Positions 7,175 through 54,137 are shown, counted from the first letter of the stretch. The stretch: 64,000 nt of DNA from Candidatus Eiseniibacteriota bacterium (GCA_963833505.1 CAWHYG010000004.1:223025-287024); one strand, 5' to 3'. Notes: a model not told the origin generated them from the sequence alone. Numbers and translations are program-made.

Positions 7175-7333
7175 AGGAGTCGGCTTTGGACAGATGCCGG
7201 ATTGGCGCGGTCTCGCGCCCGCCCGGCGGAGTGAGCACCCGATCGGGCCCGCGCGATTCCGAAGCGCGTGCGCCGTCAGCCGCCACCATGACCGGGCGTT
7301 CTCGACTCCGAACGGCTGCAATAGGAGGAACGG

Positions 7334-24329: not shown

Positions 24330-25602
24330 CTATCGGATCAGCGTCAACCTGCTGGTCAGCACTCTGGGTCCGGTCGCCAATCGGATCACGTATATGCCGG
24401 ACGGCAGCGGCCTGCCGCCTTCATCGCAGGAATCCCAGCGGATCGAATGTAGGCCGGCGTCCTCTCGTTCACTCACCAGACGCCGGATCTGCCGGCCGGA
24501 AACATCGAGGACGTCCAGGACGACGCTGACGGGAGCCGCCAAGCCGTATCTGATCGCCACCGGGCCGGCGCTGGGGTTCGGTTCCGGCTCAGGCCGCAGG
24601 AATCGAGCGACCTCCCCCACCTGGGCCGAGGAGGTCGGGCACGGGTTCGGGTTGCAGGGGACGCCGTAGCCCTGGAAGAACCCGAGCTCCTGCCAAAGCG
24701 GCGACGCCATTATTTACACCGGTGCCCATGGGGTACCATCCACTTCCATCCCACCGGGCGATGTAGCTCGCCGGTTTCCCGCCGGCCTGGGTGAAAGCTC
24801 CCCCGGCAATCAGGTCCCCGTTATAGACTGCCAAAGCAACGACTGAACCGTTCGTCCCGGAACCGAGGGGCTGCCAGGTCGTGCCGTTCCATGCGGCGAC
24901 GTGGTTCGCTCCTTGCCCGCCCGCCAGCGGAAAGTAGCCGCCCGCAACCACCGTGCCGTTATAGTCCGCCAGTGACTCGACTTCTCCGCTCATCCCTGAC
25001 GACATGGGTGCCCACGTGGTGCCATTCCACTCCGCGATCATGTTCGCCGCGAACCCCCCCGCCGTGTGGAAGCCCCCGCCGACGATGAGATTCGACGCGA
25101 AGGGAAGGAGCACCTGCACGAAGCCATCGCTGATGCCTGACCCCAGCGGCCACCAGGCATTGCCGTCCCACCTCGCGATCGAGTTCGCCGGACGACCGCC
25201 GGCGTGGCCGAAATACCCGCCCACTATCAAGCTTCCCGAGTACACAGCAGCCGCGTAGGCCTCGCCGTTGACTCCCGCGCCGAGGGGCTCCCAGCTCGTG
25301 CCGGACCACTGAGCGACGTAGGAGGCGTTGTCTGGCTCTATGCCCTGGAACGAACCCACCGCGATCAGCGTCCCGTTATAGACCGCCAGTCCCGACACTG
25401 GGGTTTCCGCAGGCGGCCCGCACAGTCCAGCGAGCGTCCCGCACCAATCGGCGCGGGACTGGCACGGCAGCACAAGAAGGCCGGCAATCCCCAGCAGGAG
25501 AACCCAAGCGCCGTGGCTTGCGGTCCGGTGGTTGCCGGATGCCCGCAAAACAGGGAAACCCCACCGACCTGTCCGCGACGCCCCTTCAACGAGCGAGCTC
25601 AT
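24330..25602 (-). CDS. Secreted beta-propeller-like repeat protein with a 'CNPNPCP' linker and a FlgD-Ig/T9SS-like C-terminal domain. Split into two ORFs by a frameshift near 24600-24700.
   Basis: ORF 24589..25602 carries a signal peptide and repeated 'W(N/D)G(T/S)xWxPLGxG' blades. ORF 24330..24710 carries 'GYGVPCNPNPCP' plus '...GIYVIRLATGPRVLTSRLTLIR'. The two ORFs overlap by 120 nt in different frames. Confidence 0.6.
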
Positions 25603-36452: not shown

Positions 36453-37877
36453 CTACCGCACGAGGGTCGCGGGTGCGGACCACCGGCGTCCGGCGGCATC
36501 GGTCACGACCAGGAAGTACCGGCCCGCGGGCGCGGGTCCGCCCCGGCTGTTCCGGCCGTCCCAGGTGATGGTGGTCCCGCCGGCCGGCACCGGGCCGAGA
36601 GCCCAGGACTGGACCGGGATTCCGAGGACATCGATCACCCGGGCCTGCATCCAGCCGGCGGAGGGCACGCGCAGGTCCCAGGTGATCCGGTCGCGGCTGG
36701 GATTCGGGTGGCCGGGGGAGAGGACAAGGCTTGTGATCCCGTGCGCCGGCTCGGGAGCCGAGGAGGCCGTGCAGCCCTGCCCCCGGGCACCGATCAACTG
36801 CTGGCACGGGCTGTTCTGCGGCAGGCATGGGGAGATGTTGGTCAGGGTCCAGTCGCCGTCCGTCGTTTGCGAGCAGGCTACAGGACCGCAAAACTCCGGG
36901 TCGGTGTAGACGCAGTGGGCGTCGTATTGGATGGCGACGCCATCCCACGAGTACATGCTTGTGGTATCTACGTCGCTGCAGGCGAAAGCGGCTCCATTCA
37001 TGGCTGCCCACAGCTCGCCGCCCTGCTCGGGTGCGCAGTTTCCCCAGAGTATGCACCGTGTGAGCATCGCTTTTTGGTTTGTTTCCACGCCGCCGCCGAT
37101 GGTGCTCGAAACGTTCGCGGTGATCGTGCATCCGGAGAGGGCGTCGCCGTCGTAACCGTCCGCGAAGCATACGCCTCCCCCGCCGCCTTCTCCAGCTCGG
37201 TTCCCCGAGATCAGGCAGTTCGTGATCCGAACGTCGATGTTGAATCGGGTCAGGATCCCTCCGCCGCCATCATCTGCCTTGTTTCCGCTGATCACGCAGT
37301 GGTCCACCACCCCGCCAAAGTCGAGCAAACAGATTCCCCCTCCGTCGTAGGCGTGGCAGTCGAGGATCCGGCACTGTGAGATCGTCGGCCCGCTGGCCTC
37401 GCAGAGAATGCCTCCGCCATCGGGGTAGTTGTCATCGTTAAGTCCGGTGCCGTTCTCGATCGTGAGGTTTTCGATCCGCGAATGGGAGCCCTCCCACTCA
37501 TGCACCCAGAATCCGCGCCCGAGACCCTGGCAGTCGAGGATGGTCTGACCGGCGCCTCCACCCGAAGTCACATCTACAGCTAGGCCGTGGAGCTCGATGT
37601 CCCGGTTGCCGGGGCCGGAATAGGTCCCCGGAGCGATGAGCACGATGTCTCCATCGACGCTGCTGTTGATCGCCGCCTGGATGGTCGGGTAGTCGCCGGG
37701 AACGTGCCGCACGGTCGCGTCCGCCCGGCTTGCGAGACCCGCAAACCCGAGCAGCGCGGCGATGGAACGGACGAGGAACAAGGACCGGGACGATCGAGGG
37801 ATACCGGCGAGGGCGTTCATGGCATGCCTCCGAGAAGCCGTGCGCCCAGACGGCACCGGGCGCACGGCTCTCTTCAT
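36453..37877 (-). CDS. Secreted right-handed beta-helix (pectate-lyase-like) repeat protein with a FlgD-Ig/T9SS-like C-terminal domain
   Basis: Signal peptide, 'NCxISGNxA..GGG' parallel beta-helix repeats, and a C-terminus '...GRYFLVVTDAAGRRWSAPATLVR'. It is a paralog of 62560..63978. Confidence 0.75.
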   Translation of the reverse strand: MKRAVRPVPSGRTASRRHAMNALAGIPRSSRSLFLVRSIAALLGFAGLASRADATVRHVPGDYPTIQAAINSSVDGDIVLIAPGTYSGPGNRDIELHGLAVDVTSGGGAGQTILDCQGLGRGFWVHEWEGSHSRIENLTIENGTGLNDDNYPDGGGILCEASGPTISQCRILDCHAYDGGGICLLDFGGVVDHCVISGNKADDGGGGILTRFNIDVRITNCLISGNRAGEGGGGGVCFADGYDGDALSGCTITANVSSTIGGGVETNQKAMLTRCILWGNCAPEQGGELWAAMNGAAFACSDVDTTSMYSWDGVAIQYDAHCVYTDPEFCGPVACSQTTDGDWTLTNISPCLPQNSPCQQLIGARGQGCTASSAPEPAHGITSLVLSPGHPNPSRDRITWDLRVPSAGWMQARVIDVLGIPVQSWALGPVPAGGTTITWDGRNSRGGPAPAGRYFLVVTDAAGRRWSAPATLVR

Positions 37878-38458
37878 TACCTGATGATGGTAACAGAATT
37901 GCTCTTCGTCTTTCCAGTCTCATCCGTGACGAGAAGGAAGTAGCGCCCTGAAGCGACGCGGTTGCCGCGGCTGTCGCGGCCGTCCCAGAGGAGGGAGGTG
38001 CCCTTGTTGCTTCCCGGCCAGCCGGTCATGGCCAGTTCGAAGTCCGTGCACGTGCCATAGGCGCGGACGACCGTGCCGGTTCCATCGCTGTAGTCGCCAT
38101 CGTAGCTCACGCCGAACGTGAGCCCCTTCAAACGCGGGCTGCTGCCCGGCGGGAAGGCCGCGTACACCTTCCACACCCGCAGGGTGTCGGGCCCCGCGTC
38201 ATCGATCTCCGCCCGGACGTCGCCGCACGAGTCCGGCGCCGTCCCCTGGCTGCACACGTTCCCGCCAACGTACGTGATCCCGGGAGCGTGGATCACGAGT
38301 ACGCCACCGGCGTTCGGTCCGGCCAAAGCGGCGGACGCCGCAAGCATCAGGGCGAACGGAACAATCAGTGGGTGAGTGCGTGCGTGCGAACGGAACTCAT
38401 TTGCGTCCAAGAACCGCTTGCCGGGCGGGCGGTCCCCGCGCACCTCTCGAGCGTTCAT
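37877..38458 (-). CDS. Small secreted protein. It fuses the N-terminal 'AGPNAGG...VWKVYAAFPPGSSPRLKG' domain shared with the Cys-rich repeat proteins directly to a FlgD-like C-terminal domain.
   Basis: 193 aa. The N-terminal domain aligns with residues 25-100 of the 4638 gene. The C-terminus reads '...GRYFLLVTDETGKTKSNSVTIIR'. Confidence 0.65.
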   Translation of the reverse strand: MNAREVRGDRPPGKRFLDANEFRSHARTHPLIVPFALMLAASAALAGPNAGGVLVIHAPGITYVGGNVCSQGTAPDSCGDVRAEIDDAGPDTLRVWKVYAAFPPGSSPRLKGLTFGVSYDGDYSDGTGTVVRAYGTCTDFELAMTGWPGSNKGTSLLWDGRDSRGNRVASGRYFLLVTDETGKTKSNSVTIIR

Positions 38459-41193: not shown

Positions 41194-43731
41194 CTACGGC
41201 CTGGCGGGATAGATCTCCTGGTCGATCCCCAGCCCCTTGGAGTTCGGCGCCCGGCGCGTCAACCATTCGAGGTTGTTCCCGCGATCGGGACGCGACAGAG
41301 GATGCGCCTTGACGCCGGCGCTGTCGGACTCCTCCCACTGGTACACGTCCTGCCCTTGCGTGTCCATGAAGATGCCAATGGACTCGAGGTCGTCCCGGAA
41401 GGAACGAAACGGCGTGTACCGGGTGGCAGTGCCCATCGGCGGCGTGTCGGTCCAGCCGTTGGGCGGGCCTAGCAGCTCATAGCGCACGTGATAGACGTCG
41501 TTGCCGCGCCGGTCCCAGAAGAGCCCGATGGAGTTGAGGTCCGCCGAGCCGCCGCAGTGGCTCCGCCAGTAGTACTCGTCATTGCCGTCGCCGTCGATCG
41601 AAATGCCGATCGACCCGTCGCGCGCGTGTCCTTGATACTGGTTCACAGCCACGTCGTTGTCGACGTTGTAGCGATCATCCCCGGATAGATCGACCTGGCA
41701 TCCAATGGCGAAGTGGGCTCCCGCGCCCAGGGAGTACTTGCCGTTCCGGTAGGTGTCGTTGCCGCCGAGGTCTTCCAGGATGCCGAGCGACCACCAGTAG
41801 CCCGCTCCGTCGCTCCAGGCCGTGGCGTGATAGGAGTCGTCCCCGGCGCCGTCGACCAGAACGCCGATGCCTCCGGCCAGCGAGTGGCCGTCTCCAAGAT
41901 CGGCGCGGCGTCCCTGGCCGACTCCCTGGGCCATGGACACCGAGAGACCGTTGTACAGAGGATCCGGATTTCCGTCGTCCCGCGCCAGGTAGGAATCATT
42001 CCCTTTCACATCGATCAGGAAGCCGGCGCCCAGCGTGCTGCCTAATCCCTGGGCGTCGTAGCCACAGACGTAGTGGTCATCTCCGGCCTGATCGACCAGC
42101 AGACCGACTCCGACCATGCCCATGCCTTCGCCCTCGTGGGTGTCCAGCGTGTAGGTGTCGTTCCCGCCGAAGTCCATCAGGATCCCGGTCCCGAAACAGC
42201 CCATGCCCAGGCCGGCTTCGGCACAGCGATAGTGATCGTCGCCCGAAAGGTCGAAGATCGCCCCCAAGCCGAAAAGGCCGCAGGAGAGCGAAGCCGGCTC
42301 CGGACCGCCCTCGTAGGTGTCGTTGCCCGCCAGATCCAGAACCAGGCCGATCGGCTGAGTCCGGCCGAGCGGAACGCCGTGCACTCCCCGGTAGAGATCA
42401 TCGCCGCCGAGGTCGAGCGTGAAGAAGGCCCGGTCGTCGATGGTGTCGCGGCCTGTGCCGAAGATGTGGACCGGACCCAGAGGCGTCGTGAAACGGCAGC
42501 CTCGGAAGGCGGGCGGAATGGCATTCGCCGACGAATCGCCCGCTCCGGCGCGCTGGTACTCCCGTAACGCGCGCCGGAAATGCGCCAGGAAGACAACCGA
42601 GCCAAAAGCCATATAGTCGCGATCAAATCGATCCAGCATTTCGAGCGAGGTTCGGGAGAGCGTGGCGGGTTGGTCCAGACGGGCGTCCCGCCAAGGAGCC
42701 ATCGCGAAGTGATAGCGGGCGGTCAGGGCGGCCGTGTCGGCGAATGCCCCTGCGGGAGCTTCGGAAGCCTGATTGCGTGCGCTCGCCTTGGAGTGCTTGC
42801 TCGGCGGCTTGGCCTGACCGCTTGCCGCCGAGGAATTCCCCGCCTCGAAGACCTGCGCGAAAACCGGGTCGTCATAGGCCTTCTCCAGCCAGGGCGCCGC
42901 GTCGTCAGCCCCGAGCACGATTCGGACCACCAATCTCTGGACTCGCAGTGGAAGCTGGGCGAAGGCCGCGCGCTCGGATGCCGCCAGCTCGTATGGATCG
43001 CCATGGACTTCAGTGTGCCGGAGATACGCCTCGAGCGCCTCGAGCGGAGAGGCCTGCTTGGGAACCCATTCGGGGCCCCAGGTCAGGCTGTCGGGCAAGG
43101 GGATGTTCCGGCCCGCCGACACGTCGGTCAGCGCGTAGGCGCGAGTGACCAGCTCCGCCGGATCCTGCGCGTTCTGGATCAGGTCCTCGGACAGTTTGCC
43201 GCTGAATCGCGGAATGGCACGGACGTCGTGAAAGAGATTCCGCACCGTGCGCAGGATGGAGTCGTCGTGCCCGTAATTGGCCATCTCCTCGGTCGTGAAG
43301 CCGATTGGCCGGCCGGTGCGGCCCAGTTTCGCCAGGACCGCGTCCCAGAGGCTGTCCGGGATCGCCAGATCGGCCCGGGCTGGGCCTGGCCAGGACAGCC
43401 GCGGATACCCGGCGGCCGGGGCCGCGGCGTTCGGAGCTGACTTGGCTTTGACTGCCTTGCCCGAGGCCAGCTTGGCCGAGGCCGGCTTGCCCGAGGCCGC
43501 CTTGCCCGAGGCCGGCTTGCCCGGGGCAGCCTTGCTCGAGACCAGCTTGGCAGAGATCGGCTTGTCCGAGGTCGCCTTGTCCGGGGCCGCCGTGCTCGGG
43601 GCCATTGTGGCCAAGGCGTTGCGCCCGTTGCCGGCGCTAGTCGGACTTATCCAAGCAACCACGGGCCGGGAATCGAACAGGGTTGCGATCAGAGCAATCA
43701 GGATCCAGGCGGACCAACGGACACGGTTCAC
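41194..43731 (-). CDS. Large secreted repeat protein with 'DL(S/A)G(N/D)DxY...G.G.G.L.D..G.D.Y' beta-helix-like repeats and an N-terminal (KPASG)n low-complexity linker
   Basis: Probable GTG start at 43731 after an AAGGGGG run, followed by a signal peptide 'VNRVRWSAWILIALIATLF'. Fifteen-bp DNA repeats at about 43440-43590 encode K-P-A-S-G. Confidence 0.6.
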   Translation of the reverse strand: MNRVRWSAWILIALIATLFDSRPVVAWISPTSAGNGRNALATMAPSTAAPDKATSDKPISAKLVSSKAAPGKPASGKAASGKPASAKLASGKAVKAKSAPNAAAPAAGYPRLSWPGPARADLAIPDSLWDAVLAKLGRTGRPIGFTTEEMANYGHDDSILRTVRNLFHDVRAIPRFSGKLSEDLIQNAQDPAELVTRAYALTDVSAGRNIPLPDSLTWGPEWVPKQASPLEALEAYLRHTEVHGDPYELAASERAAFAQLPLRVQRLVVRIVLGADDAAPWLEKAYDDPVFAQVFEAGNSSAASGQAKPPSKHSKASARNQASEAPAGAFADTAALTARYHFAMAPWRDARLDQPATLSRTSLEMLDRFDRDYMAFGSVVFLAHFRRALREYQRAGAGDSSANAIPPAFRGCRFTTPLGPVHIFGTGRDTIDDRAFFTLDLGGDDLYRGVHGVPLGRTQPIGLVLDLAGNDTYEGGPEPASLSCGLFGLGAIFDLSGDDHYRCAEAGLGMGCFGTGILMDFGGNDTYTLDTHEGEGMGMVGVGLLVDQAGDDHYVCGYDAQGLGSTLGAGFLIDVKGNDSYLARDDGNPDPLYNGLSVSMAQGVGQGRRADLGDGHSLAGGIGVLVDGAGDDSYHATAWSDGAGYWWSLGILEDLGGNDTYRNGKYSLGAGAHFAIGCQVDLSGDDRYNVDNDVAVNQYQGHARDGSIGISIDGDGNDEYYWRSHCGGSADLNSIGLFWDRRGNDVYHVRYELLGPPNGWTDTPPMGTATRYTPFRSFRDDLESIGIFMDTQGQDVYQWEESDSAGVKAHPLSRPDRGNNLEWLTRRAPNSKGLGIDQEIYPARP

Positions 43732-43961
43732 GACGGCACCCCCCTTCGGAGCATGGTTCTTTGACACGCCGAGAATAGGACACTCGTCGGCACCCGGAAA
43801 CCGCAAAGCTGCGGGTCGAACAGAGGCCGGATCGTCTTGCGGCCCGTCAGATCCGTTGACCACTGCGCCCCGACGTCTTTAGCCTGGGATGGACACGCCG
43901 CTCCCGGGACCGGGAGTTCGGGAACGTGAAACGATCGAAATCGTGAAACGGAGACAATCCC

Positions 43962-45470: not shown

Positions 45471-45831
45471 ACGACTTCAAACCGCCGTCGCTTGACGGCA
45501 GCTCCACGACCTGGCCTGGACGACCACGGCCGTCACCAACATGATGGATCGCGAAGGAATCTCATCTCGCCGGACCTGCCGGACCAGGCTTCGTACCCCT
45601 TGCGGCCATCGTGGCTCGAGGACAGACCAACCGCCGCTCGCCCTCGCAAGGCCCTTGTCCCGCCATGATCTTGCTTCTAGACTAGTTCTCGATTCATCCG
45701 ACAAGGACTCGCCTGGAACGCAGAGTACGGCGGTGGTTCTACCGGGTTGACCAGGGCGGGACCAGCAAGGGAGGCCGATTCTGGCCGAAGCCGCGCGATA
45801 TCGGATCTGTGCGCGTCTTGGCGCCGGGGGC

Positions 45832-48535
45832 ATGGGTGTCGTCTACCGCGCAGAAGACACCGTGCTGCTGAGGCCAGTTGCGCTCAAGATCATCACCAGC
45901 GGGCTGTCCAATGAACCACGCGGCCGCGCCCGGATCCTGCGTGAGGCGCGGGCGGCAGCCGCGCTCACGCACCCGAACATCTGCACGATCTACGAAGCCG
46001 GTGAGCTTCCGGCAGGCACACCACTTCCCCCCGGTCCCGGAGCCGATGACCCGCCCGGATCTCTCCCGACCGGCGCCCCGTACCTCGCCATGGAGCTGGT
46101 CGAAGGCCAAACCCTCGATGCCCTGATCCGCGAGCGAGGCCCGTTCCCACTCCCCGAGCTCCTTGATATCGCCGTCCAGGTGTCCGAGGGACTCGCGGCC
46201 GCACACGGGCGCGGGATCGTCCACCGCGATCTCAAGCCCGGGAACGTGATGGTTACGGGGGACCGCCGGATCAAGATCCTCGACTTCGGTCTGGCTCGTC
46301 TCCTCGCGCCGCGGCCGGTCGACACGGGCGGCTCCCCGCTTCTCGATGCGGACTCCCGCGACCTCGCCCGCGACGGACAGGTCCTGGGCACCCTTGGCTA
46401 TGTCTCGCCGGAGCGCGCACTGGGGAGGCCGGGAGCTTCCCAGACGGACGTCTTTTCCCTCGGGGTCATGCTCTATGAGATGGCTTCGGGAATGCGTCCC
46501 TTCCGCGGGGAATCCACCACCGCGGTGCTGGCGAAGATCATCGAGGCCGAGCCTCAACCGCTCGTGCAGCTTCGACCCGATCTTCCCCCCCGGCTTGCTG
46601 GCATCATCACCCGTTGCCTGAGGAAGACACCGGAGGAGCGCTACAACGACACGCGCGACCTGGTGGTCGCGCTGGGCGAGATCCGGGAGCGGAGCGTCCG
46701 GCGGAATGAGGTGCTGGAGGTCACGGCCCCGGTGCCGGCGCCCCCGCCACGGCAAGGCCCTGTGCCAAGACAGGGGCCGGCGACGCGCCGGATGCGGCGT
46801 GTCCTGCCGTGGATCGCGGGTACCGTGTTGCTTGGGGCTGCCATCGCCGTCACGTTGGCGCTCTCACACCGTCCTCCGGTGCAGGGCCGTCTCCGGACCT
46901 ACCGCGTCACCGAAACGGCCGACGTCAAGTCCCCGGCGATCTCGCCGGACGGCAACTTCGTTGCCTTTGTTCGAATGCGGCCTGGTCTCGGCGACGCCGC
47001 CTTCGTGCACGATCTGCGAACGGGAAGCGAGCTGGAGGTCTACCGCGGAGGCCTCATTGGGCCGGACCTCGGGTGGGCGCCCGACGGCTCCGAGCTGGCG
47101 CTCACCGTAAACTCACTGACCACGGGAAGATCCCAGACGCTGGTGGTTTCACTCTTGGGCGGACAGCCCAAGATCGTGAGCAACGAGTGTTTGGGCGCCC
47201 TGAGCTGGTCTCCTGACGGGAAACGAATCGTGGGCGCCGACGCGGACGGCCGCCTCGCGATCGTGGACAAAGCCTCTGGCACGCCAACCTACCTGAATAA
47301 CCAGGAGCGGCATACCTGGATCGAGGGAACCGCCTGGTCTCCGCAGGGCCGTCTTGTCCTGCTCCATGCCCGCAATGCGGCCGGGGCCTGGGAAGCATGG
47401 ATTCTGCCTCTCGATGGCCATCGCGAATTCCGCCTCGAGGTCCCGCGCCTGGTCAGCAGCTGCCCCCAATGGTCGCCATTCTGGTAAGGCGATCTACTGG
47501 AGTGCTGATGGAGGTCTTTGGAAGCTACCTGTTGACTCGGAAAGCGGTCGGCCCGCGGGGCAGCCGGTCAAGCTGTCCGAGATAGGGATAGGCGGCAAGA
47601 TCACAGTCTCGCGGGACGCAAAGAAGCTCGCGTATGTGGTCGATGCTCTCGCGGCCGAGCTCATGGTGATCCGTGTCGCCGACGACGGCGTCGCGTCCGC
47701 GCCCGAGGCCTGGTCATCGCAATCCCGCACCAACGTCGCAAGCTCGCCCCGGTACTCCCCCAACGGCACCTCCCTCGCCTTCGTTCGCAACACACCGGTT
47801 GGCGGCCATGGCGCATGCGCGGTGATGATCGCCGATCTCGCGACCCACACAGAGAGGGTCGTCCTGTCTGCGAGCGCGATCACTCAGATCGCATGGTCTC
47901 CCGATGGCTCGGAGATCCTCTGCCTTCTCAACCAGAGAGGCGTTGCTTCCATCCGACGGATCAATGTGGCCACGGCTGCGTCGCAGGGCCCCCTGGCGAT
48001 CGACGCGCACCGGGAAATGGCATGGGCGGCGGGCGGCGGCGTGATCTACCAGCGGTCCGACAGGCGCAATTACACGCGGTTGGATCTGGACACCGGAGTC
48101 GGAAGGCCGCTCCTCGCCGAAGACGAAGTGGCAGTCTGGCAGATTCGCGCCGCCCCCGACGGCCGGTCCATCGCCTTTGCCAGAACTTCGGATCGGGCCT
48201 CCGGGATGTCGGTCTGTGTCGCGTCCATCGCCGACGGTACCGTGCGGGTGCTCTATCCGGGCCGAGCGGCCCCGGTCGGCTGGTCGGCCGATGGACGCCG
48301 GGTGTTCCTGGTGCGGGATGATCCCGACGAGGCGAAGGTCGGGAAGCGGGTTGAAGAGGTCGTGGCCTGTTCCGTCGAAAGCGGCAGGATCGAACCCGTG
48401 GCGCCGTTGCCCGGCATGGATTTCGGCTGGAGCGCGATTGACGTGAGCGCAGATGGCCGTCACATTGCCTATGCGCGAACAAGCACGCTCTCGGACGTAT
48501 GGGTGGCGGAGGATTTCGATCCGGAGGTGCGCTGA
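45832..48535 (+). CDS. Ser/Thr protein kinase with a single TM and a periplasmic TolB-like beta-propeller. It is interrupted by a 1-nt frameshift at a C5 run near 47462 (ORFs 45832..47487 and 47354..48535).
   Basis: The kinase motifs 'HRDLKPGN' and 'DFGLA' are present. The TM is 'VLPWIAGTVLLGAAIAVTLAL'. The motifs 'SPDG..xA', 'WSPDGS' and 'PDGRSIAF' recur across both ORFs. The in-frame region upstream of the ATG still encodes 'RYRICARLGAGG', so the true start is probably a non-ATG codon near 45778-45781 after AAGGGAGG. Confidence 0.7.
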
Positions 48536-48576
48536 GGCCGGTACGACCCTTGCTTCTCTCCTCGCTCGGATGATTC

Positions 48577-50112
48577 ATGAGTCCTCCGGGCCAGGTCGTC
48601 ACTCGGACGCGGGGAGAGCAGGCGGACATGGTCGGGCCGAAGAAAACTCCGGAGTTCCTGGGCCGCTTCCGGTTTCACCGGGGTGCCGGTCGCGGTTCGG
48701 CCGCTCACCAGCGGGGTTTCGAATTCATGATGGGATTGTTCATCCGCCAGGGCCCGGGCAGTGGATCGTTTCTCCCTCTCGAGGCGGGGGAAAGCCCCTA
48801 TGTGCTGGGCCGCTCGCCGGAAGCGACCATCCGGCTTGAAGGCGAGGGCGTCTCGCGCCGGCACGCAGAGATTGCCTATGCTCGCGGCCGCTGGATGGTG
48901 CGTGACCTCGGGAGCCGGAACGGCACCTTTGTGAACTCGCTCCCGGTGCGCGAGAGCGAGCTTTCGCCGCGGGACGTGATTGTCCTGGGAACGATTGAGC
49001 TTCTCGTCGTCCTGCGGGAGCCGGGCACTGAACCTCCCAGGACTCCGAACTGCGAGGACGCATCCGGCACGCTGCCGCTCGCCCTGACGCCGCTCGTCGG
49101 CCTGGTCGGCGAGAGCGGTTCCATGCAGGCCGTGCGTGATGCCATCCGCCGGGTGGCCCCCCTCGACGTGACCGTGGTGCTTCGCGGGGAGTCCGGAACC
49201 GGGAAAGAGCTGGTGGCGAGGGCCATCCATGCAGCGAGCACCCGCCGGGCGGGTCCTTTCGTGACGGTGAACTGCGCGGCCATCCCCGAGGCTCTCGTGG
49301 ACAGCGAGCTCTTCGGTCACGAACGGGGCGCCTTCACCGGCGCGACTTCGGAACGCATGGGTCGATTCGAAGAGGTCTCCGGGGGGACCCTTTTTCTCGA
49401 TGAAGTCGGTGACCTGCCCTTGGCGGTGCAGGCGAGCCTTCTCCGGGTGCTGGAGGACGGCATCCTGAGGCGCGTGGGAGGGAAAAAGGACCTGCGCGTG
49501 GACGTGCGCGTGGTGGCCGCGACGCATCGCGACCTGGAACGGGCCGTCCGCCGGGGCGGGTTCCGGAACGATCTCTACCACCGCCTCAACGTCTTCGAAA
49601 TCGCGATCCCGCCGCTGCGGGATCGGGTCGAGGACCTCCCGCTTCTTGCCGCTCATTTCTTCTCCGGGATCTCGGCCACGATCGGCTGCGCTCCTCTCCG
49701 GCTGTCGGACGAGGCGATGGCGCTCCTCCGTTCCCATCCCTGGCCGGGAAACGTCCGCGAACTTCGAAACGTGCTCGAGCGGGCCGCGATCAGCGCCCGT
49801 TCCGCCGTGATCGGGCCGGGGGATATCCAACTCGCGCCGCTTTCCCTCGCGATCGGGGAGAGTGAGGACCAGGACGCGGACAGCATCCCGGCCGCGAGCG
49901 GGAGCGCCTTCGGCAGCAGAACCGGTGCGAGCCCTCCCCGCGGCGAATCGCTGCCCGAGCATCTCACGCAACGGGAACGCGACATCGTCAGGGCCGCCCT
50001 CGAAGCGTCGCACTGGAACCAGTCGGAGGCCGCCCGCCGGCTGGGCGTCTCGGAGTCGAAGATCCGGAAGTGCATCCGCCAGTACGGGATCGAACGCCCG
50101 GGGACGAAGTAG
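48577..50112 (+). CDS. Sigma-54-dependent transcriptional activator with an N-terminal FHA domain
   Basis: The FHA region reads '[27 protein letters not shown]...[13 protein letters not shown]'. The AAA+ domain carries 'GESGTGKE' and 'GAFTGA', and the C-terminus has a Fis-type HTH. The start may instead be the internal ATG at 48727. Confidence 0.85.
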
Positions 50113-50609
50113 GCGAGGACCGACCGCGCCGCCTGGGGTGACGCGCCGTTCATGCTCGCCCGTGGATCGCGCCCTCTGTCGCACTGGGGCCCTGCAGGCT
50201 CGATGTGACATCTTGTCCGACGTTTGGCCGGGCGCACAGGTCCTCCGGGAAAAAACCTCTCAGACCGACCCTGCCGGTTACGAAAGTCCCATTGAGCCTG
50301 CCCCGGTTCGAAGCTCGCCTGTAAGCCTTCCGGCCCGTCCGATCGTACGACCCATTCGTCCGCCTGGACGAATGGTGCCGGCCAAGCCTGAAAGCAAGCG
50401 AGCCCCCTAACCCGCTCCGTAGCGCCCAACCTCCCTTCATGGTCGGAATCCCGCGCACGACAAGGCGCGGATGCACCGGTTGCCCGCGGCCGTCAGCCGC
50501 ATTCATTCCCTGGCACCCTGATTGCAAACAGAGCGTTCGAACCAGGCCTCCGCGGTACTGGTCACAAGGGTCATCGTTTTTCCAGAGGAGATCGAGAAGG
50601 AGGATGTCC

Positions 50610-53600
50610 ATGAACACGGTAAACAGCCGATCCAAGTTGTACGCCGGCGTTGGAACGCGAGATCCAAACGGCCCTAGACGTTCCGCGGCGCTGTTCCTGT
50701 GTGCGTTCCTGTTGCTGTTCTCCACGCCACATCATTCGGCAGCGTCGCCCTATGCCGTCGGCGTGCGGCTTGATTTTGCCACCGGCACCGCTCCCCATGC
50801 GATGGCGGTCGGAGATCTGGACGGCGACGGCAATACCGACATGGTGGTCGCAAACTACACCTCAAACACCGTGTCGGTCCTGCTCGGCTACGGCACGGGG
50901 AAACTCTCGGCCAGGCGGGACTTCGCCGTCGGAACGACTCCCTGGGGAATCGCGGTCGGGGACGTGAACGGCGACGGGCATCTCGACGTCGTAACCGCGA
51001 ACTACTCGTCCAACACGGTGTCGGTGCTCCTGGGAGACGGCGCGGGCGGATTCTCGCCGAAGCGGGACTTCGCGACCGGAGCGCATCCACTTTCGGTCGC
51101 GATCCGGGACGTCAACGGAGACGGAAGGTCCGACCTGGTTGTGGCCGACTGGAGCGCGAACACGGTTTCGGTGCTGCTGGGCGATGGTCAGGGAGGCTTC
51201 GGGACCAAGACCGACTACGTGACCGGAACCCAGCCTTTCTGGGTCGCGATCGAGGATGTGAGCGGAGACGGCAGGCCGGACCTCGTGGTGGCAAGCCACA
51301 TCTCGAACGCCGTCTCCGTGCTGCTGGCCGACAGCCTGGGAGGCTTCCGTCCCAAGGTCGACTACCCGACCGGGAACGGTCCGTATTGCGTGGCGATCTC
51401 GGACGTGAACAACGACGGAAAGCCCGACCTGGCGGTTGCGAACATCGACGCCAACACGGTGTCCGTGCTTCTGAACACCGGCGGCGGAGTCTTCGGCACG
51501 AAGACCGACTATGCGGCCGGCTCCTCCCCCACCTCGGTCCGAATCGGAGACCTGAACGGCGATGGGAAGGCGGACCTGGTGGCCACGAACGCCGCCTCCA
51601 ACACCGTGTCCGTGTTTCTCGGCAACGGCAACGGCACCTTCGGAACGAAGACCGACTTCACCACAGGAACCGAGCCGCGGGCGGTCGCGCTCTGCGACAT
51701 GAACGGCGACGGCCAGGTCGATCTGGCGTTGGTCGACCGCGCCGCCAACACTGCCTCGGTTCTGCTCGGCAACACCCGGGGCCTCTTCGGGGCGAGCGAC
51801 AGCCTCCGCACCGGGCACAATCCCAGCGCGATGGCTTCCGGCGATCTGAACGGGGATGGGATTCCCGACGTGGCGGTCACCAACGCCGGCTCCAACACGG
51901 TATCGGTCTTCCTCGGCCTGAGCGCGGGCGGGTTCGCGGCAAAGACCGACTTCGCGACCGGGACCCGTCCCATGGGGGTCGCCATCGGGGATGTGAACCT
52001 CGACGGACATCCCGACCTTGCCGTGGCGAACATCAGCTCCAGCACGGTCTCGGTCCTGCTCGGAAACGGCGCGGGCGGGTTCGGGACCAAGACCGATTTC
52101 CCAACCGGATCAGGTCCCAACTCCGTTTCTCTGGTAGACGTCAGCAACGACGGGAAGGCGGACCTGGTGGTGACCAACCAGAACGCAGGCACCGTTTCGG
52201 TTCTCCTCGGCAACGGCAGTGGCGGATTCGGGACGAAAACCGACTTCACGTGCGGAACCTATCCCAATTCCGTCGCCGTCGGCGACCTGAACGGAGACGG
52301 GAATCCGGACCTGTCGGTGGCCAACCTGGGCTCCAACTCGGTGTCGGTTCTCCTCGGCAACGGTGCGGGCGGGTTCGGCACGAAGACCGACTTCACGACG
52401 GGGACGTATCCGCGATCGATCGTGATCGGGGATCTGAACGCCGACACCAGGCTGGACGTCGCGGTGGCGGACTCGGGCTCCAACGCCGTCTCGGTGCTCC
52501 TCGGCAACGGAACGGGCGGGTTCGGCACGAAGACGGACTTCCCGACCGGAGCGGGGCCCCGGTCGATGATCATCGGAGACTTGAACGGGGACGGAAACCT
52601 CGACCTAGCCACGGCGAACCCGAACGCCAGTTCGATTTCGGTGCTACTCGGCAACGGCGCTGGAGCGTTCGGATCTGTGAGCAGCTACCACGCGAACGGC
52701 CCCGCATGTCTCGCTGAATTCGGGGCGTCTTACGACGCTGAAAGCGGACAATGGATCGATTCGAGTGACATTTGTGATCTCCCGTGGGACGAGGACGATG
52801 TCTGCTGGTTTGGGGGGCATAAGCACGTACGGCCGGCACATGGGCACGGCACGCTTCATTGCCCAACCGCCTTTCCCAGCCCACCCAGCCCGGAACTCCT
52901 GGGTGGCCCGCTCCCGTTGACCTTCCAGGTGTGCATGACCGACGTCGGGACCCTCCAGGCCCCGGCCGACTCGGTGCGCTTCTTCGATGGCACGACCCTC
53001 CTCGGCACCTCTCCGGTGAACGTGAACGGGCAGGCCGGTCTGACCCTGCCCGCCCTGTATCTCGGTGAGCGTTCGCTCACCGCCGTCTACACCGGCAGCG
53101 ACTCGCTCTTCGGCTGGATCGCGGCGCCGCAGACGATCCATGTCGTCTCCACCGCCAAGCCGGCGATCACCGGCATCACCGATGTCAGGAACGACCAAGG
53201 CCGACAGGTCCGCCTGACCTTCACGCGAAGCCCGTTCGACATCCTGAATTCGGGCACGCCGATCACGGGCTACCAGGTGTACCGGAGGATCGCGGGAGCG
53301 GAAGGAGGGGGAGGACAAGCGCTGATGACCTTCCCGCCGGCATCGCGCCATGTTCCGAGGCCCTCGGCGCAAGACGTCCAGTGCGCCGGCTGGGACTACG
53401 TCCTGACGGTGCCGGCGACAACCGAGGACATCTACGAGACCGTGGTGCCGACGCTGGCCGATTCGAACTCCTTCGGCATCCACCGGAACACCTTCTTCGT
53501 GCGCGCGGCCACGGCCACCGCCAGCGTCTACTACGATTCGCCGCCCGATTCCGGCTACTCGGTGGACAACCTGCCGCCGCTGCCGCCCGAAAAATTCGGC

Positions 53601-54137
53601 GGCGACTACGCAGGCAACTCCACAATCCTTCATTGGGCCCCGAATCTCGAACCTGATCTGTGGGACTACCATCTCTATCGCGGCAGCACGCCGGACTTCG
53701 TGCCCGGGTCGCAAAACCTGGTCGCGATCTGCGCCGACACCAGCTACGTGGACGCCGGACCGCCGGGGAACTACTACAAACTGTCCGCCATGGATGTAAA
53801 CAGCAACGAGAGCGGTTTCGCGACGACCGGACCCGTCTATCCGTCGAACGCGCCCGGCGGCGGCGCCCTCGTCTTCGCGCTCGACGGGGTGCGGCCCAAT
53901 CCGTCCTTGGGAAAGGATCTGAGGGTGACGTTCTCGCTGCCCGATGCGGCGCCGGCGCGGTTGGAGCTGATCGACCCGGCCGGGCGGCGGGTGGCGGAGC
54001 GCGAAGTCGGGTCCATGGGAGGTGGACGTCACACGGTGGACCTCGCCGCCGGTCGCAGGATGGCCGCGGGGTTCTACCTGGCGCGGTTGACGCGCGGCGG
54101 GAGCGAGCGCGTGGCGAGCGTCGTGGTTCTGAGATAA
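50610..54137 (+). CDS. Giant secreted FG-GAP/VCBS-like repeat protein (about 17 repeats of approximately 57 aa) with Ig-like region(s) and a FlgD-Ig/T9SS-like C-terminal domain
   Basis: ATG at 50610 sits 6 nt after GAAGGAGG. The signal peptide is followed by 'DLNGDGxxDLxVANxxSNTVSVLLGNGxGGFGTKTDFxTG' repeats. The C-terminus reads '...GFYLARLTRGGSERVASVVVLR'. Confidence 0.8.
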   Translation: MNTVNSRSKLYAGVGTRDPNGPRRSAALFLCAFLLLFSTPHHSAASPYAVGVRLDFATGTAPHAMAVGDLDGDGNTDMVVANYTSNTVSVLLGYGTGKLSARRDFAVGTTPWGIAVGDVNGDGHLDVVTANYSSNTVSVLLGDGAGGFSPKRDFATGAHPLSVAIRDVNGDGRSDLVVADWSANTVSVLLGDGQGGFGTKTDYVTGTQPFWVAIEDVSGDGRPDLVVASHISNAVSVLLADSLGGFRPKVDYPTGNGPYCVAISDVNNDGKPDLAVANIDANTVSVLLNTGGGVFGTKTDYAAGSSPTSVRIGDLNGDGKADLVATNAASNTVSVFLGNGNGTFGTKTDFTTGTEPRAVALCDMNGDGQVDLALVDRAANTASVLLGNTRGLFGASDSLRTGHNPSAMASGDLNGDGIPDVAVTNAGSNTVSVFLGLSAGGFAAKTDFATGTRPMGVAIGDVNLDGHPDLAVANISSSTVSVLLGNGAGGFGTKTDFPTGSGPNSVSLVDVSNDGKADLVVTNQNAGTVSVLLGNGSGGFGTKTDFTCGTYPNSVAVGDLNGDGNPDLSVANLGSNSVSVLLGNGAGGFGTKTDFTTGTYPRSIVIGDLNADTRLDVAVADSGSNAVSVLLGNGTGGFGTKTDFPTGAGPRSMIIGDLNGDGNLDLATANPNASSISVLLGNGAGAFGSVSSYHANGPACLAEFGASYDAESGQWIDSSDICDLPWDEDDVCWFGGHKHVRPAHGHGTLHCPTAFPSPPSPELLGGPLPLTFQVCMTDVGTLQAPADSVRFFDGTTLLGTSPVNVNGQAGLTLPALYLGERSLTAVYTGSDSLFGWIAAPQTIHVVSTAKPAITGITDVRNDQGRQVRLTFTRSPFDILNSGTPITGYQVYRRIAGAEGGGGQALMTFPPASRHVPRPSAQDVQCAGWDYVLTVPATTEDIYETVVPTLADSNSFGIHRNTFFVRAATATASVYYDSPPDSGYSVDNLPPLPPEKFGGDYAGNSTILHWAPNLEPDLWDYHLYRGSTPDFVPGSQNLVAICADTSYVDAGPPGNYYKLSAMDVNSNESGFATTGPVYPSNAPGGGALVFALDGVRPNPSLGKDLRVTFSLPDAAPARLELIDPAGRRVAEREVGSMGGGRHTVDLAAGRRMAAGFYLARLTRGGSERVASVVVLR

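What the first reader, a model, noticed from the sequence alone, without database searches (positions are those of the whole stretch)
45778..54137. Signalling cluster: a transmembrane Ser/Thr kinase with a periplasmic TolB-like propeller, then an FHA-sigma54 activator, then a giant FG-GAP surface protein
A Hanks-type kinase with an extracytoplasmic beta-propeller sensor lies directly upstream of a sigma54 enhancer-binding protein whose N-terminal domain is an FHA (phospho-Thr reader). This suggests kinase-to-FHA-EBP signalling that drives a sigma54 promoter, plausibly that of the downstream 1175-aa FG-GAP/CTD protein. The kinase lacks an ATG at the expected position: the upstream in-frame sequence still encodes the glycine loop 'RLGAGGMG', implying an ATT or CTG start after AAGGGAGG. 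It is also split by a frameshift at 'ccccc' near 47462.
Basis: partly seen in the sequence, partly recalled or inferred. Interest (0 to 1): 0.6.

Follow-up and report, generated by a model that had tools for sequence, protein, structure and literature searches.

The report
Ser/Thr kinase paired with sigma-54 activator
A membrane Ser/Thr kinase with a TolB-like sensor sits next to a sigma-54 activator that carries a phospho-threonine-reading FHA domain; the pair recurs in related uncultured bacteria and a textbook sigma-54 promoter lies in front of the next gene, so this is a well-preserved example of a known signalling design rather than a new one.

Summary
The region encodes four things in order:
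- a Hanks-type kinase with one membrane helix and a TolB-like beta-propeller sensor;
- an FHA + AAA+ + HTH sigma-54 activator (EBP);
- a perfect sigma-54 promoter, TGGCAC-N5-TTGCA at 50511-50526, the only one in 64 kb (0.01 expected);
- a 1175-aa FG-GAP protein.

Orthologous loci add four points.
- **Conserved pair.** The kinase-EBP pair is kept in four lineages (kinase identity 50-70%). The downstream gene is not.
- **Second promoter.** A sigma-54-type element, CGG(T/C)ACG-N4-TTGC(T/A), precedes the EBP gene in all four lineages and in a fifth, more distant locus. This suggests feedback on the EBP gene.
- **Start codon.** The kinase start is CTG at 45781. Orthologs have TTG and GTG at exactly that codon.
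- **Frameshift.** It is a +1 insertion in 47473-47479, just 3' of the C5 run and not in it. Orthologs are intact.

With two lesions, the kinase here is either recently decayed or affected by assembly error. A second split gene elsewhere in the window leaves both readings open.

FHA-EBPs were described in Myxococcus in 2005, so I rate this a new member of a known kind, of moderate interest.

The parts
45767..45774 (+). Shine-Dalgarno sequence AAGGGAGG of the kinase gene
   Evidence: Read directly. The same GGGAGG lies about 3-6 nt before the start codon in L081 and L168.
45781..45783 (+). Kinase start codon, CTG
   Evidence: It lies 17 codons upstream of the internal ATG at 45832. L081 has TTG and L168 has GTG at the same codon. 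Starting at the ATG would remove strand beta-1 and most of the glycine loop.
45781..47472 (+). Kinase part A: Hanks catalytic domain, juxtamembrane linker, membrane helix (46804-46863) and the first part of the extracytoplasmic propeller region, read through the conserved W codon
   Evidence: Pfam Pkinase E 2.8e-43 and PD40. Motif coordinates. 66% identical to the intact 893-aa ortholog P0145. Alignment.
47473..47479 (+). Frameshift site: 7 nt (TCGCCAT) where the orthologs have two codons
   Evidence: Four-way protein alignment and DNA comparison. The public annotation of this genome also splits the gene into 551-aa and 299-aa products (P0144 and P0129).
47480..48535 (+). Kinase part B (+1 frame): TolB-like beta-propeller, the C-terminal sensor
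   Evidence: PD40 E 8.3e-12. TIGR02800 E 4.6e-14, below its cut-off. AlphaFold model pLDDT 92, with TolB structures as best PDB matches.
48539..48554 (+). Sigma-54-type promoter element CGGTACgacccTTGCT in front of the EBP gene
   Evidence: GGYACG-N4-TTGCW occurs once in the window against 0.07 expected. The same element precedes the EBP gene in L081, L085 and L168, and it heads the EBP operon in L084. The intergenic region shows no RNA structure signal (z -0.15).
48628..50112 (+). FHA-sigma-54 enhancer-binding protein. Likely start ATG 48628; alternatives are 48577 (as annotated publicly) and 48727. FHA about 48799-48990, AAA+ about 49102-49602, HTH_8 about 49966-50085
   Evidence: Pfam. GAFTGA at 49327-49344, Walker A at 49186-49209. 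The FHA domain is closest to M. tuberculosis FhaA, GarA and OdhI, with GR, SRRH and NGT retained. The conserved ATG and GGGGAGAG upstream of 48628 are shared with L081.
50352..50375 (+). Perfect 10+10 palindrome CCATTCGTCC-gcct-GGACGAATGG, a candidate activator-binding site about 170 bp upstream of the predicted transcription start
   Evidence: 0.01 expected. Its function is inferred. A one-mismatch 13-mer copy at 48492-48504 is not significant on its own.
50511..50526 (+). Consensus sigma-54 promoter TGGCACcctgaTTGCA
   Evidence: The only zero-mismatch match in 64 kb, with 0.01 expected. It lies 84 nt upstream of the FG-GAP start codon.
50610..54137 (+). FG-GAP repeat protein, 1175 aa, with a signal peptide, a Big_3_5 domain and a weak FlgD_ig-like C-terminus. 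GGAGG lies 6 nt before the ATG
   Evidence: Pfam. Sequence.

Best explanation
This is a two-gene phospho-threonine signalling cassette of a known design.

Proposed mechanism:
- A single-pass membrane Hanks-type Ser/Thr kinase senses something in the periplasm through a TolB-like beta-propeller region.
- On activation it autophosphorylates on threonine.
- The N-terminal FHA domain of the neighbouring sigma-54 activator docks on that phospho-threonine. The activator may also be phosphorylated itself.
- This relieves or promotes assembly of its AAA+ ring, which then opens sigma-54 promoters.

Two such promoters lie in cis:
- one directly in front of the activator gene, giving positive feedback;
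- one perfect consensus promoter, with a palindromic candidate enhancer about 170 bp upstream, in front of the FG-GAP surface-protein gene. That gene is the local output in this genome.

The output gene is swapped between lineages, while the kinase-activator pair and the feedback promoter are kept.

In this genome the kinase gene has a CTG start and a +1 frameshift inside the sensor. Either the sensor arm has recently decayed, or the assembly carries an indel error.

Shown: domain content, motifs, promoter sequences, synteny, lesion positions. Inferred: docking, phosphorylation, activation, enhancer function, and which promoter the activator serves.
For: Domains and catalytic motifs are intact.
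- The kinase has GxGxxG, VALK, HRD and DFG.
- The EBP has Walker A and B, GAFTGA and HTH_8.
- The FHA domain has GR, SRRH and NGT, aligned to FhaA and GarA.

The kinase-EBP pair is conserved.
- Four lineages carry the same gene order with a short gap: the window, L081-083/L086, L085 and L168.
- More distant kinases (43-45% identity) have no EBP next door.

FHA-EBPs associate with kinases.
- Hanks kinases lay in the flanks of 6 of 16 FHA-EBP loci against 1 of 144 non-FHA EBP loci. In at least four of the six the kinase is directly upstream on the same strand.
- Fisher p = 3e-5 on the first 80 loci.

Sigma-54 promoters are present.
- A perfect site lies at 50511-50526 (0.01 expected).
- A conserved CGG(T/C)ACG-N4-TTGC(T/A) element precedes the EBP gene in four orthologous lineages, and it heads the EBP operon in L084.
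- A sigma-54 site directly downstream of an FHA-EBP gene also occurs in L085, L065 and L021/L115. The gene behind it looks exported in L085 (metzincin-like), L065 (lipoprotein-type signal) and L021 (N-terminal membrane anchor).

Other support:
- The palindrome at 50352-50375 is unique in the window.
- The sensor fold matches TolB.
- Only one kinase, one FHA domain and one EBP occur in the 64 kb.
Against: - No experiment links this kinase, this FHA domain and these promoters.
- The kinase gene here is disrupted by a frameshift and starts at CTG. In E. coli, CUG gives 1-2% of AUG initiation (bioRxiv 10.1101/063800).
- The FG-GAP gene is absent from orthologous loci, and L081 has no sigma-54 site after its EBP gene.
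- The EBP-proximal element departs from consensus (CGGTAC instead of TGGCAC).
- The test for an enhancer motif shared by the two promoters was weak in the window (p about 0.05-0.1) and negative in L085.
- rpoN was not seen, because only this window is available.
- No PP2C phosphatase was identified among the window ORFs that were scanned.
Confidence: 0.6

Rival explanations
1. The kinase is a genuine pseudogene in this organism. The start codon mutated from TTG or GTG to CTG and a base was inserted in the sensor region. The cassette is therefore decaying here, and the activator is orphaned, constitutive or controlled by another kinase.
For: Two independent lesions fall in one gene, while the orthologs are intact. 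The public annotation also splits the gene. About 35 other ORFs in the window were scanned with Pfam; most gave full-length matches and only one further split gene turned up, so indel errors are not pervasive.
Against: The rest of the gene shows no further stops or shifts, and all catalytic motifs are intact. A second split gene lies in the same 64 kb (24330-25602), and the contig is very long (683 kb). Both fit indel errors in a long-read assembly. CTG can initiate at a low level.
Confidence: 0.3
2. The frameshift is an assembly or base-calling error and the kinase is intact. CTG is then simply a rare, weak native start that keeps kinase levels low.
For: There is a second apparently frameshifted gene in the window. 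The site is a few bases from a C5 run. The reading frame is otherwise perfectly preserved on both sides.
Against: The extra base is not inside the homopolymer. Most other genes checked are intact.
Confidence: 0.35
3. The kinase and the FHA-EBP are neighbours but do not signal to each other. The FHA domain reads phospho-threonine made by another kinase, or mediates a contact that does not depend on phosphorylation.
For: Bacterial Ser/Thr kinases are often pleiotropic (background knowledge; see review PMC4601284, listed). 10 of the 16 FHA-EBP loci sampled showed no kinase in the available flanks.
Against: Adjacency is conserved across four lineages at 50-70% kinase identity. Kinases are strongly enriched next to FHA-EBPs compared with other EBPs. 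Many of the kinase-less FHA-EBP loci are contigs of only 3-7 kb.
Confidence: 0.12
4. The sigma-54 promoter of the FG-GAP gene is served by a different activator encoded elsewhere, and its position after the FHA-EBP gene is coincidental.
For: The FG-GAP gene is not linked to the cassette in any orthologous locus. The two promoters share no significant enhancer motif.
Against: A sigma-54 site immediately downstream of an FHA-EBP gene recurs in L085, L065 and L021/L115. This is the only consensus site in 64 kb, and it lies about 400 bp from the only EBP gene.
Confidence: 0.25
5. The frameshift is programmed (+1 ribosomal frameshifting) and regulates production of the full-length sensor kinase.
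For: Shifting +1 at the frame-1 stop (TGG TAA G, 47482-47488) would restore a protein of the same length as the orthologs. This follows from reading.
Against: No ortholog has the shift. The conserved S-G residues are encoded in the +1 frame upstream of that stop, so the change is a recent insertion. There is no slippery codon or internal Shine-Dalgarno of the prfB type.
Confidence: 0.02

Closest known systems
FHA-domain sigma-54 enhancer-binding proteins of Myxococcus xanthus (Jelsbak, Givskov and Kaiser 2005, PNAS 102:3010; cited in PMC4320627 and PMC12288465)
   Same: The architecture is the same: an N-terminal FHA domain in place of a receiver domain, then a sigma-54 AAA+ domain and an HTH. 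The proposed logic is also the same, with Ser/Thr kinase signalling feeding sigma-54 transcription. In Myxococcota genome loci sampled here, a Hanks kinase likewise sits directly upstream of the FHA-EBP (L026, L057, L065, L041).
   Different: Here the partner kinase has a large TolB-like propeller sensor. The pair comes from a different, uncultured high-GC lineage and is only 38-45% identical to the Myxococcota EBPs. The EBP gene has its own conserved sigma-54-type promoter. The 2005 paper could not be read here, so its details rest on my memory of it.
PknH-EmbR of Mycobacterium tuberculosis (PMC8636726, PMC9239209)
   Same: A transmembrane Hanks kinase with an extracytoplasmic sensor is paired with a transcription factor that carries an FHA domain.
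   Different: EmbR is a SARP/OmpR-type sigma-70 activator with a C-terminal FHA domain. It is not an AAA+ sigma-54 activator, and no sigma-54 promoter is involved.
NtrB-NtrC and other two-component sigma-54 activators
   Same: The AAA+ and HTH_8 output module and the promoter type are the same (NCBIfam ntrC and nifA partial matches). The sensor and activator genes are adjacent, and the activator gene follows a sigma-54 promoter, as glnAp2 does for ntrBC (background knowledge).
   Different: The input is a Ser/Thr kinase read by an FHA domain, not His-Asp phosphotransfer to a receiver domain. All NCBIfam equivalog cut-offs are missed.
GarA/OdhI and FhaA, FHA proteins controlled by PknB/PknG in Actinobacteria
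   Same: These are the closest solved FHA domains (E 2e-13 to 1e-10), with identical phospho-threonine-binding residues.
   Different: They are stand-alone FHA proteins that regulate enzymes or cell-wall synthesis, not transcription activators.
TolB (Tol-Pal system)
   Same: The fold of the kinase's C-terminal sensor domain.
   Different: The score is far below the TolB equivalog cut-off (52 against 343 bits). The domain is fused to a kinase through a membrane helix, and there is no Tol-Pal context.

Membership tests
Hanks-type (eukaryote-like) Ser/Thr protein kinase | Pkinase catalytic domain above the Pfam gathering score | tested here: met
   PF00069 scores 148.6 bits against a cut-off of 31.7.
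Hanks-type (eukaryote-like) Ser/Thr protein kinase | Catalytic motifs: glycine loop GxGxxG, VAIK lysine, HRD loop, DFG | tested here: met
   LGAGGMG, VALK, HRDLKPGN and DFG are present. The glycine loop is complete only if translation starts at CTG 45781.
Hanks-type (eukaryote-like) Ser/Thr protein kinase | Uninterrupted reading frame with a canonical start codon | tested here: not met
   The start is CTG and there is a +1 frameshift at 47473-47479. Orthologs are intact.
Bacterial enhancer-binding protein (sigma-54 activator, AAA+) | Sigma54_activat AAA+ domain with Walker A and B and the GAFTGA loop | tested here: met
   PF00158 E 4e-70. [14 protein letters not shown] and GAFTGA are present.
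Bacterial enhancer-binding protein (sigma-54 activator, AAA+) | C-terminal Fis-type HTH DNA-binding domain | tested here: met
   PF02954 E 9.7e-9, 35.3 bits against a cut-off of 22.
Bacterial enhancer-binding protein (sigma-54 activator, AAA+) | ATP-dependent activation of sigma-54 holoenzyme; rpoN present in the genome | not testable with these tools
   Only the 64-kb window is available, and no biochemistry can be done.
FHA-type EBP subclass (Myxococcus type) | N-terminal FHA domain in place of a receiver domain | tested here: met
   PF00498 scores 67.6 bits against a cut-off of 20.7 at residues 75-138 of the 511-aa form. No Response_reg match was found.
FHA-type EBP subclass (Myxococcus type) | Phospho-threonine-binding residues (Arg, Ser, His, Asn) conserved | tested here: met
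   GR, SRRH and NGT align with M. tuberculosis FhaA FHA (3po8).
FHA-type EBP subclass (Myxococcus type) | Binding to a phosphorylated kinase or other phospho-threonine ligand | not testable with these tools
   This needs pull-down, two-hybrid or calorimetry with phosphopeptides.
Sigma-54-dependent promoter | GG and GC elements 10 nt apart, within TGGCAC-N5-TTGCW, upstream of a gene on the same strand | tested here: met
   50511-50526 is a perfect match with 0.01 expected. 48539-48554 matches 10 of 12 consensus positions and is conserved in orthologs.
Sigma-54-dependent promoter | Transcription start about 12 nt downstream of the GC element; dependence on rpoN and an EBP | not testable with these tools
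   No transcript data are available.
TolB (Tol-Pal beta-propeller protein) | Score above the TIGR02800 equivalog cut-off | tested here: not met
   52.2 and 35.6 bits against a cut-off of 343. The domain is TolB-like in fold only.
FG-GAP / VCBS repeat protein | Multiple FG-GAP repeats above threshold | tested here: met
   PF13517 scores 405.9 bits over 13 stretches, and PF01839 scores 206 bits.
T9SS-type C-terminal sorting domain (the 'CTD') | Por_Secre_tail or FlgD_ig match above the gathering score at the C-terminus | tested here: inconclusive
   FlgD_ig scores 18.4 bits and Por_Secre_tail 12.5 bits, each against a cut-off of 27. BLASTP to another FlgD_ig tail in the window gives E 0.003.

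The most novel reading that the evidence does not exclude
The kinase, the FHA-EBP and the sigma-54 feedback promoter form a self-contained, portable 'phospho-threonine two-component system'. It has been kept as a unit across at least four lineages of an uncultured high-GC group while its output gene is swapped: an FG-GAP protein here and a metzincin-like protease elsewhere. To my knowledge no kinase partner has been assigned experimentally to any FHA-EBP, so this would be the first clearly assignable cognate pair. It would also give a defined propeller-sensor, kinase and promoter set for testing how FHA domains gate AAA+ activators.
Probability: 0.45. Interest if true: 0.5.

Novelty: new member of a known kind. 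Interest (0 to 1): 0.35.

Why it matters
Sigma-54 activators with an FHA input domain were described in 2005. As far as I could find in the searchable literature, no kinase partner or activation mechanism has been established for them.

This locus and its orthologs offer a compact, conserved candidate pair. It has two identifiable promoters, one on the activator gene itself, and a candidate enhancer. That makes the kinase-to-FHA-to-AAA+ step directly testable.

The locus also gives a clean comparative example of start-codon drift: GTG, TTG and CTG at one conserved position. It shows too that kinases of about 900 aa with TolB-like propeller sensors form a very large, uncharacterised receptor family. 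More than 100 such proteins appeared in one search, and most have no adjacent activator.

If the lesions in the kinase are real, the window captures the decay of the sensor arm while the activator and its promoters remain intact.

Tried and rejected
- **Exact look-up of window proteins.** It found no contig for the EBP (511-aa and 461-aa forms), for SdhA or for P0001. The source genome and its taxonomy therefore stayed unknown.
- **Genome and metagenome scans with the EBP.** Both were dominated by generic AAA+ peptide patterns and returned no close ortholog (at most 51% identity). They were still useful as a background sample for the test of FHA-kinase association. The orthologs came instead from cluster members and the kinase homolog search.
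- **ATT at 45778 as the start.** Rejected in favour of CTG at 45781, because the TTG and GTG of orthologs align with the CTG at the same distance from the internal ATG, each shortly after a GGGAGG.
- **Frameshift inside the C5 run.** Rejected, because the W codon after the run is conserved in all four lineages compared.
- **Programmed frameshift.** Rejected (see the rival explanations).
- **Sigma-54-like hits at 24943 (-) and 16816 (-).** The first lies inside a coding repeat and the second faces no gene.
- **A conserved RNA structure in the kinase-EBP spacer.** None found (z -0.15). The window has no Rfam family and no tRNA.
- **An enhancer motif shared by the two promoters.** Weak in the window and absent in L085.
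- **Sigma-70 promoter and terminator scan.** Nothing informative.
- **Reading the Jelsbak 2005 paper.** It is not held.
- **L081 551-aa propeller protein as a guide for the second split gene.** No homology to that region.

Full report
**What is in the sequence**

On the + strand between 45.7 and 54.2 kb lie three genes.

The first is a Hanks-type Ser/Thr kinase.
- Pfam Pkinase matches at E 2.8e-43.
- The catalytic motifs are LGAGGMG, VALK, HRDLKPGN and DFG. A single hydrophobic helix lies at 46804-46863, preceded by RRMRR.
- About 560 extracytoplasmic residues follow. They match PD40 repeats in the window protein and, in the precomputed Pfam hits for its homologs, Tricorn-type propellers as well. 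They match the TolB propeller model only far below its equivalog cut-off.
- An AlphaFold model of the last 351 residues, built on 40 homologs, has pLDDT 92 and is all-beta. Its best solved matches are TolB structures, Foldseek E 2.8e-14.

The second gene is a sigma-54 enhancer-binding protein (EBP).
- It has an N-terminal FHA domain (67.6 bits against a cut-off of 20.7), a Sigma54_activat AAA+ domain (E 4e-70) and a Fis-type HTH.
- Walker A, Walker B and GAFTGA are intact.
- The FHA domain is closest to M. tuberculosis FhaA, GarA and OdhI, all of which are read-outs of Hanks kinases. It keeps the GR, SRRH and NGT phospho-threonine-binding residues.

The third gene encodes a 1175-aa protein with a signal peptide, 13 FG-GAP_3 stretches and a Big_3_5 domain. 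Its tail resembles FlgD_ig and Por_Secre_tail sorting domains only weakly, below cut-off.

No other kinase, FHA domain or EBP occurs in the 64 kb.

- TGGCACcctgaTTGCA lies at 50511-50526 on the + strand, 84 nt before the ATG at 50610. GGAGG sits 6 nt before that ATG.
- It is the only zero-mismatch match to TGGCAC-N5-TTGCA in the window, with 0.01 expected from shuffles.
- About 136 bp upstream of its GG lies a perfect 10+10 palindrome, CCATTCGTCC-gcct-GGACGAATGG (50352-50375). It is also unique in the window.
- Its position fits an activator-binding site, but that function is inferred.

**Related loci**

The exact proteins could not be traced to a contig. The public record does hold them: P0001, P0144 and P0129, all on one 683-kb contig.

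Cluster members and the kinase homolog search led to three further orthologous lineages.

| Lineage | Identity to the window | Source calls |
|---|---|---|
| L081/L082/L083/L086 | EBP about 70%, kinase 66-70% | 15, 18, 19, 28, 40, 71 |
| L085 | EBP 64% | 27 |
| L168 | kinase 50% | 73, 75 |

- In all of them a propeller kinase is followed directly by the FHA-EBP on the same strand.
- Two more distant propeller kinases (45% and 43% identity) have no EBP next door, so the pairing defines a clade.
- Kinases of about 900 aa with this propeller architecture are very common. More than 100 appeared in one search, several labelled Acidobacteriota, Terriglobia or Thermoanaerobaculia.

The link between FHA-EBPs and kinases is general. 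I classified 160 EBP loci from the genome and metagenome scans with a home-built FHA profile and a kinase search.
- 16 loci carry an FHA-EBP, and 6 of those have a Hanks kinase in the available flanks.
- In L026, L057, L065 and L041 the kinase is directly upstream on the same strand.
- Among the 144 other EBP loci, only 1 has a kinase nearby.
- On the first 80 loci alone, Fisher p = 3e-5.

**A second, conserved sigma-54-type element**

A sigma-54-type element lies just before the EBP gene in every lineage.

| Locus | Element | Position | Source calls |
|---|---|---|---|
| window | CGGTACgacccTTGCT | 48539-48554, right after the kinase stop | 7, 9 |
| L081 | CGGTACggcccTTGCT | 9812-9827 | 23 |
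| L085 | CGGCACgatgtTTGCA | 1349-1364 | 31 |
| L168 | CGGTACgatgcTTGCA | 2901-2916 | 77, 105 |
| L084 (EBP 47% identical) | CGGTACggtcgTTGCT | 7267-7282, ahead of an operon that holds the FHA-EBP, a kinase and a histidine kinase | 20, 96 |

- The pattern GGYACG-N4-TTGCW occurs once in the window against 0.07 expected.
- The surrounding spacer is otherwise poorly conserved between subgroups and has no RNA-structure signal.
- I read this as a sigma-54 promoter for the activator gene, which would give positive feedback. It could equally respond to another EBP.
- Together with a conserved GGGGAGAG-N9-ATG shared with L081, it favours ATG 48628 as the EBP start. The publicly annotated 48577 is less likely.

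**The output gene is not conserved**

- L085 has a sigma-54 site (CGGCACgaccgTTGCT, 3080-3095) after its EBP. It is followed by a small ORF and a signal-peptide metzincin-like gene with the motif HEVGHYLGLYH.
- L081 has no such site. A 112-aa ORF and a convergent recQ follow instead.
- In Myxococcota-type loci, L065 and L021/L115 also carry a good sigma-54 site immediately after the FHA-EBP gene. The gene behind it looks exported in L065 (lipoprotein-type signal) and in L021 (N-terminal membrane anchor).
- So 'FHA-EBP, then a sigma-54 promoter, then an envelope or secreted protein' recurs, but the FG-GAP protein is specific to this genome.

**The two oddities of the kinase gene**

Start codon:
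- Between the in-frame stop (45748-45750) and ATG 45832 there is no ATG, GTG or TTG. Yet the region encodes RYRICARLGAGG, which is strand beta-1 and the glycine loop.
- L081 has TTG and L168 has GTG exactly 17 codons upstream of the corresponding internal ATG, each shortly after GGGAGG. The window has CTG (45781) at that position, after the same Shine-Dalgarno sequence.
- The start is therefore CTG, not ATT. In E. coli, CUG initiates at 1-2% of the AUG level (bioRxiv 10.1101/063800).

Frameshift:
- In all four lineages compared a conserved W is followed by exactly two residues and then (S/G)G.
- The window has TGG (47470-47472), then 7 nt (TCGCCAT), then TCT GGT (S G) in the +1 frame.
- The lesion is a one-base insertion in 47473-47479, just 3' of the C5 run and not within it.
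- Because the S-G codons survive in the +1 frame and no ortholog is shifted, a programmed frameshift is very unlikely.

Real mutation or assembly error:
- This cannot be decided here.
- About 35 other ORFs in the window were scanned with Pfam, and most gave full-length matches.
- One further gene is split in the same way. A propeller-repeat ORF (24589-25602, minus strand) overlaps, in another frame, a stand-alone FlgD_ig sorting-domain ORF (24330-24710).
- Two split genes in 64 kb of a 683-kb contig fit either occasional long-read indel errors or a modest pseudogene load.

**Mechanism**

Shown: domains, motifs, promoters, synteny.

Inferred:
- The kinase is activated through its propeller sensor and autophosphorylates.
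- The EBP's FHA domain docks on a phospho-threonine. A T-x-P-V motif conserved between the window and its closest ortholog L081 in the juxtamembrane linker (46720-46737) would suit the hydrophobic +3 preference of FHA domains. This is my inference from general FHA knowledge.
- The AAA+ ring then assembles and opens the two sigma-54 promoters.

**Comparison with what is known**

- FHA-type EBPs were described in Myxococcus xanthus by Jelsbak et al. 2005. The paper is cited in PMC4320627 and PMC12288465 but is not held here. M. xanthus has 52 EBP homologs (PMC4880591).
- PknH-EmbR is the classical pairing of a sensor kinase with an FHA-bearing transcription factor (PMC8636726, PMC9239209), but EmbR is a sigma-70-type activator.
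- The output module is NtrC-like without reaching any equivalog cut-off.
- The locus is therefore a new member of a known kind. Its useful extras are a clearly assignable kinase partner, a conserved feedback promoter and a swapped output gene.

**Verdict**

Signalling remains inferred, the kinase is damaged or mis-assembled here, and the FG-GAP target is lineage-specific.
- Interest is moderate, 0.35.

Noticed in passing
window 24330-25602 (- strand): A second split gene. A DUF5122/Rax2-type propeller-repeat ORF (24589-25602) overlaps, in another frame, a 126-aa ORF that is only a FlgD_ig sorting domain (E 5e-10). That domain normally forms the C-terminus of such proteins. This bears on whether the kinase frameshift is an assembly error.
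   Followed up: partly
window 45832-47487 and about 47640-48535: The public annotation of the source genome calls the kinase as two separate proteins. P0144 is 551 aa, starting at the internal ATG, and P0129 is 299 aa. Both are on a 683,100-bp contig.
   Followed up: yes
window 41194-43863 (- strand): An 889-aa ORF with many GxDxY-type repeats (GNDTY, GDDHY, GDDSY and similar) and an Ala/Lys/Ser-rich N-terminal region. It has no Pfam or NCBIfam match.
   Followed up: no
window 2513-3166 and 3167-3829 (+ strand): Two ORFs of about 220 codons with high third-position GC lie in the same frame, separated by a single stop codon. Neither has a Pfam match. They could be two genes or one gene with an in-frame stop.
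   Followed up: no
L084 7267-16251: A more distant FHA-EBP (47% identity) sits in an apparent sigma-54-driven operon. The order is a 48-aa ORF, a TPR protein, the FHA-EBP, a 1199-aa kinase fused to an SBP_bac_5 solute-binding domain, and a histidine kinase. Ser/Thr and His kinases therefore lie side by side.
   Followed up: partly
L081 11404-11603: Arms of about 28 nt form an inverted repeat (gcctagcctcaatgcgtcagaaatccacg ... cgcggatttctgacgcatcgaggctagcc) about 150 nt apart, directly after the EBP stop. This is the position where the window and L085 have a sigma-54 promoter. It may be a small inserted element.
   Followed up: no
L065 8277-15206 and L032 497-6754: In these Myxococcota-type loci the FHA-EBP is flanked by two different Hanks kinases, one upstream on the same strand and one downstream.
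   Followed up: no
L041 8106-9863: The kinase upstream of this FHA-EBP has a degenerate catalytic loop (HGDVGPERL instead of HRDxKxxN) and GLGLG instead of DFG. It may be a pseudokinase partner.
   Followed up: no
L085 3176-3283: A 35-codon ORF with a strong Shine-Dalgarno sequence (GGGGGAGGAG) lies between the downstream sigma-54 promoter and the metzincin-like gene.
   Followed up: no
window 36453-37919 (- strand) and L081 3952-5220: Both the window and the orthologous contig encode Beta_helix proteins with FlgD_ig tails near the cassette. FlgD_ig-tailed secreted proteins seem common in this lineage.
   Followed up: no
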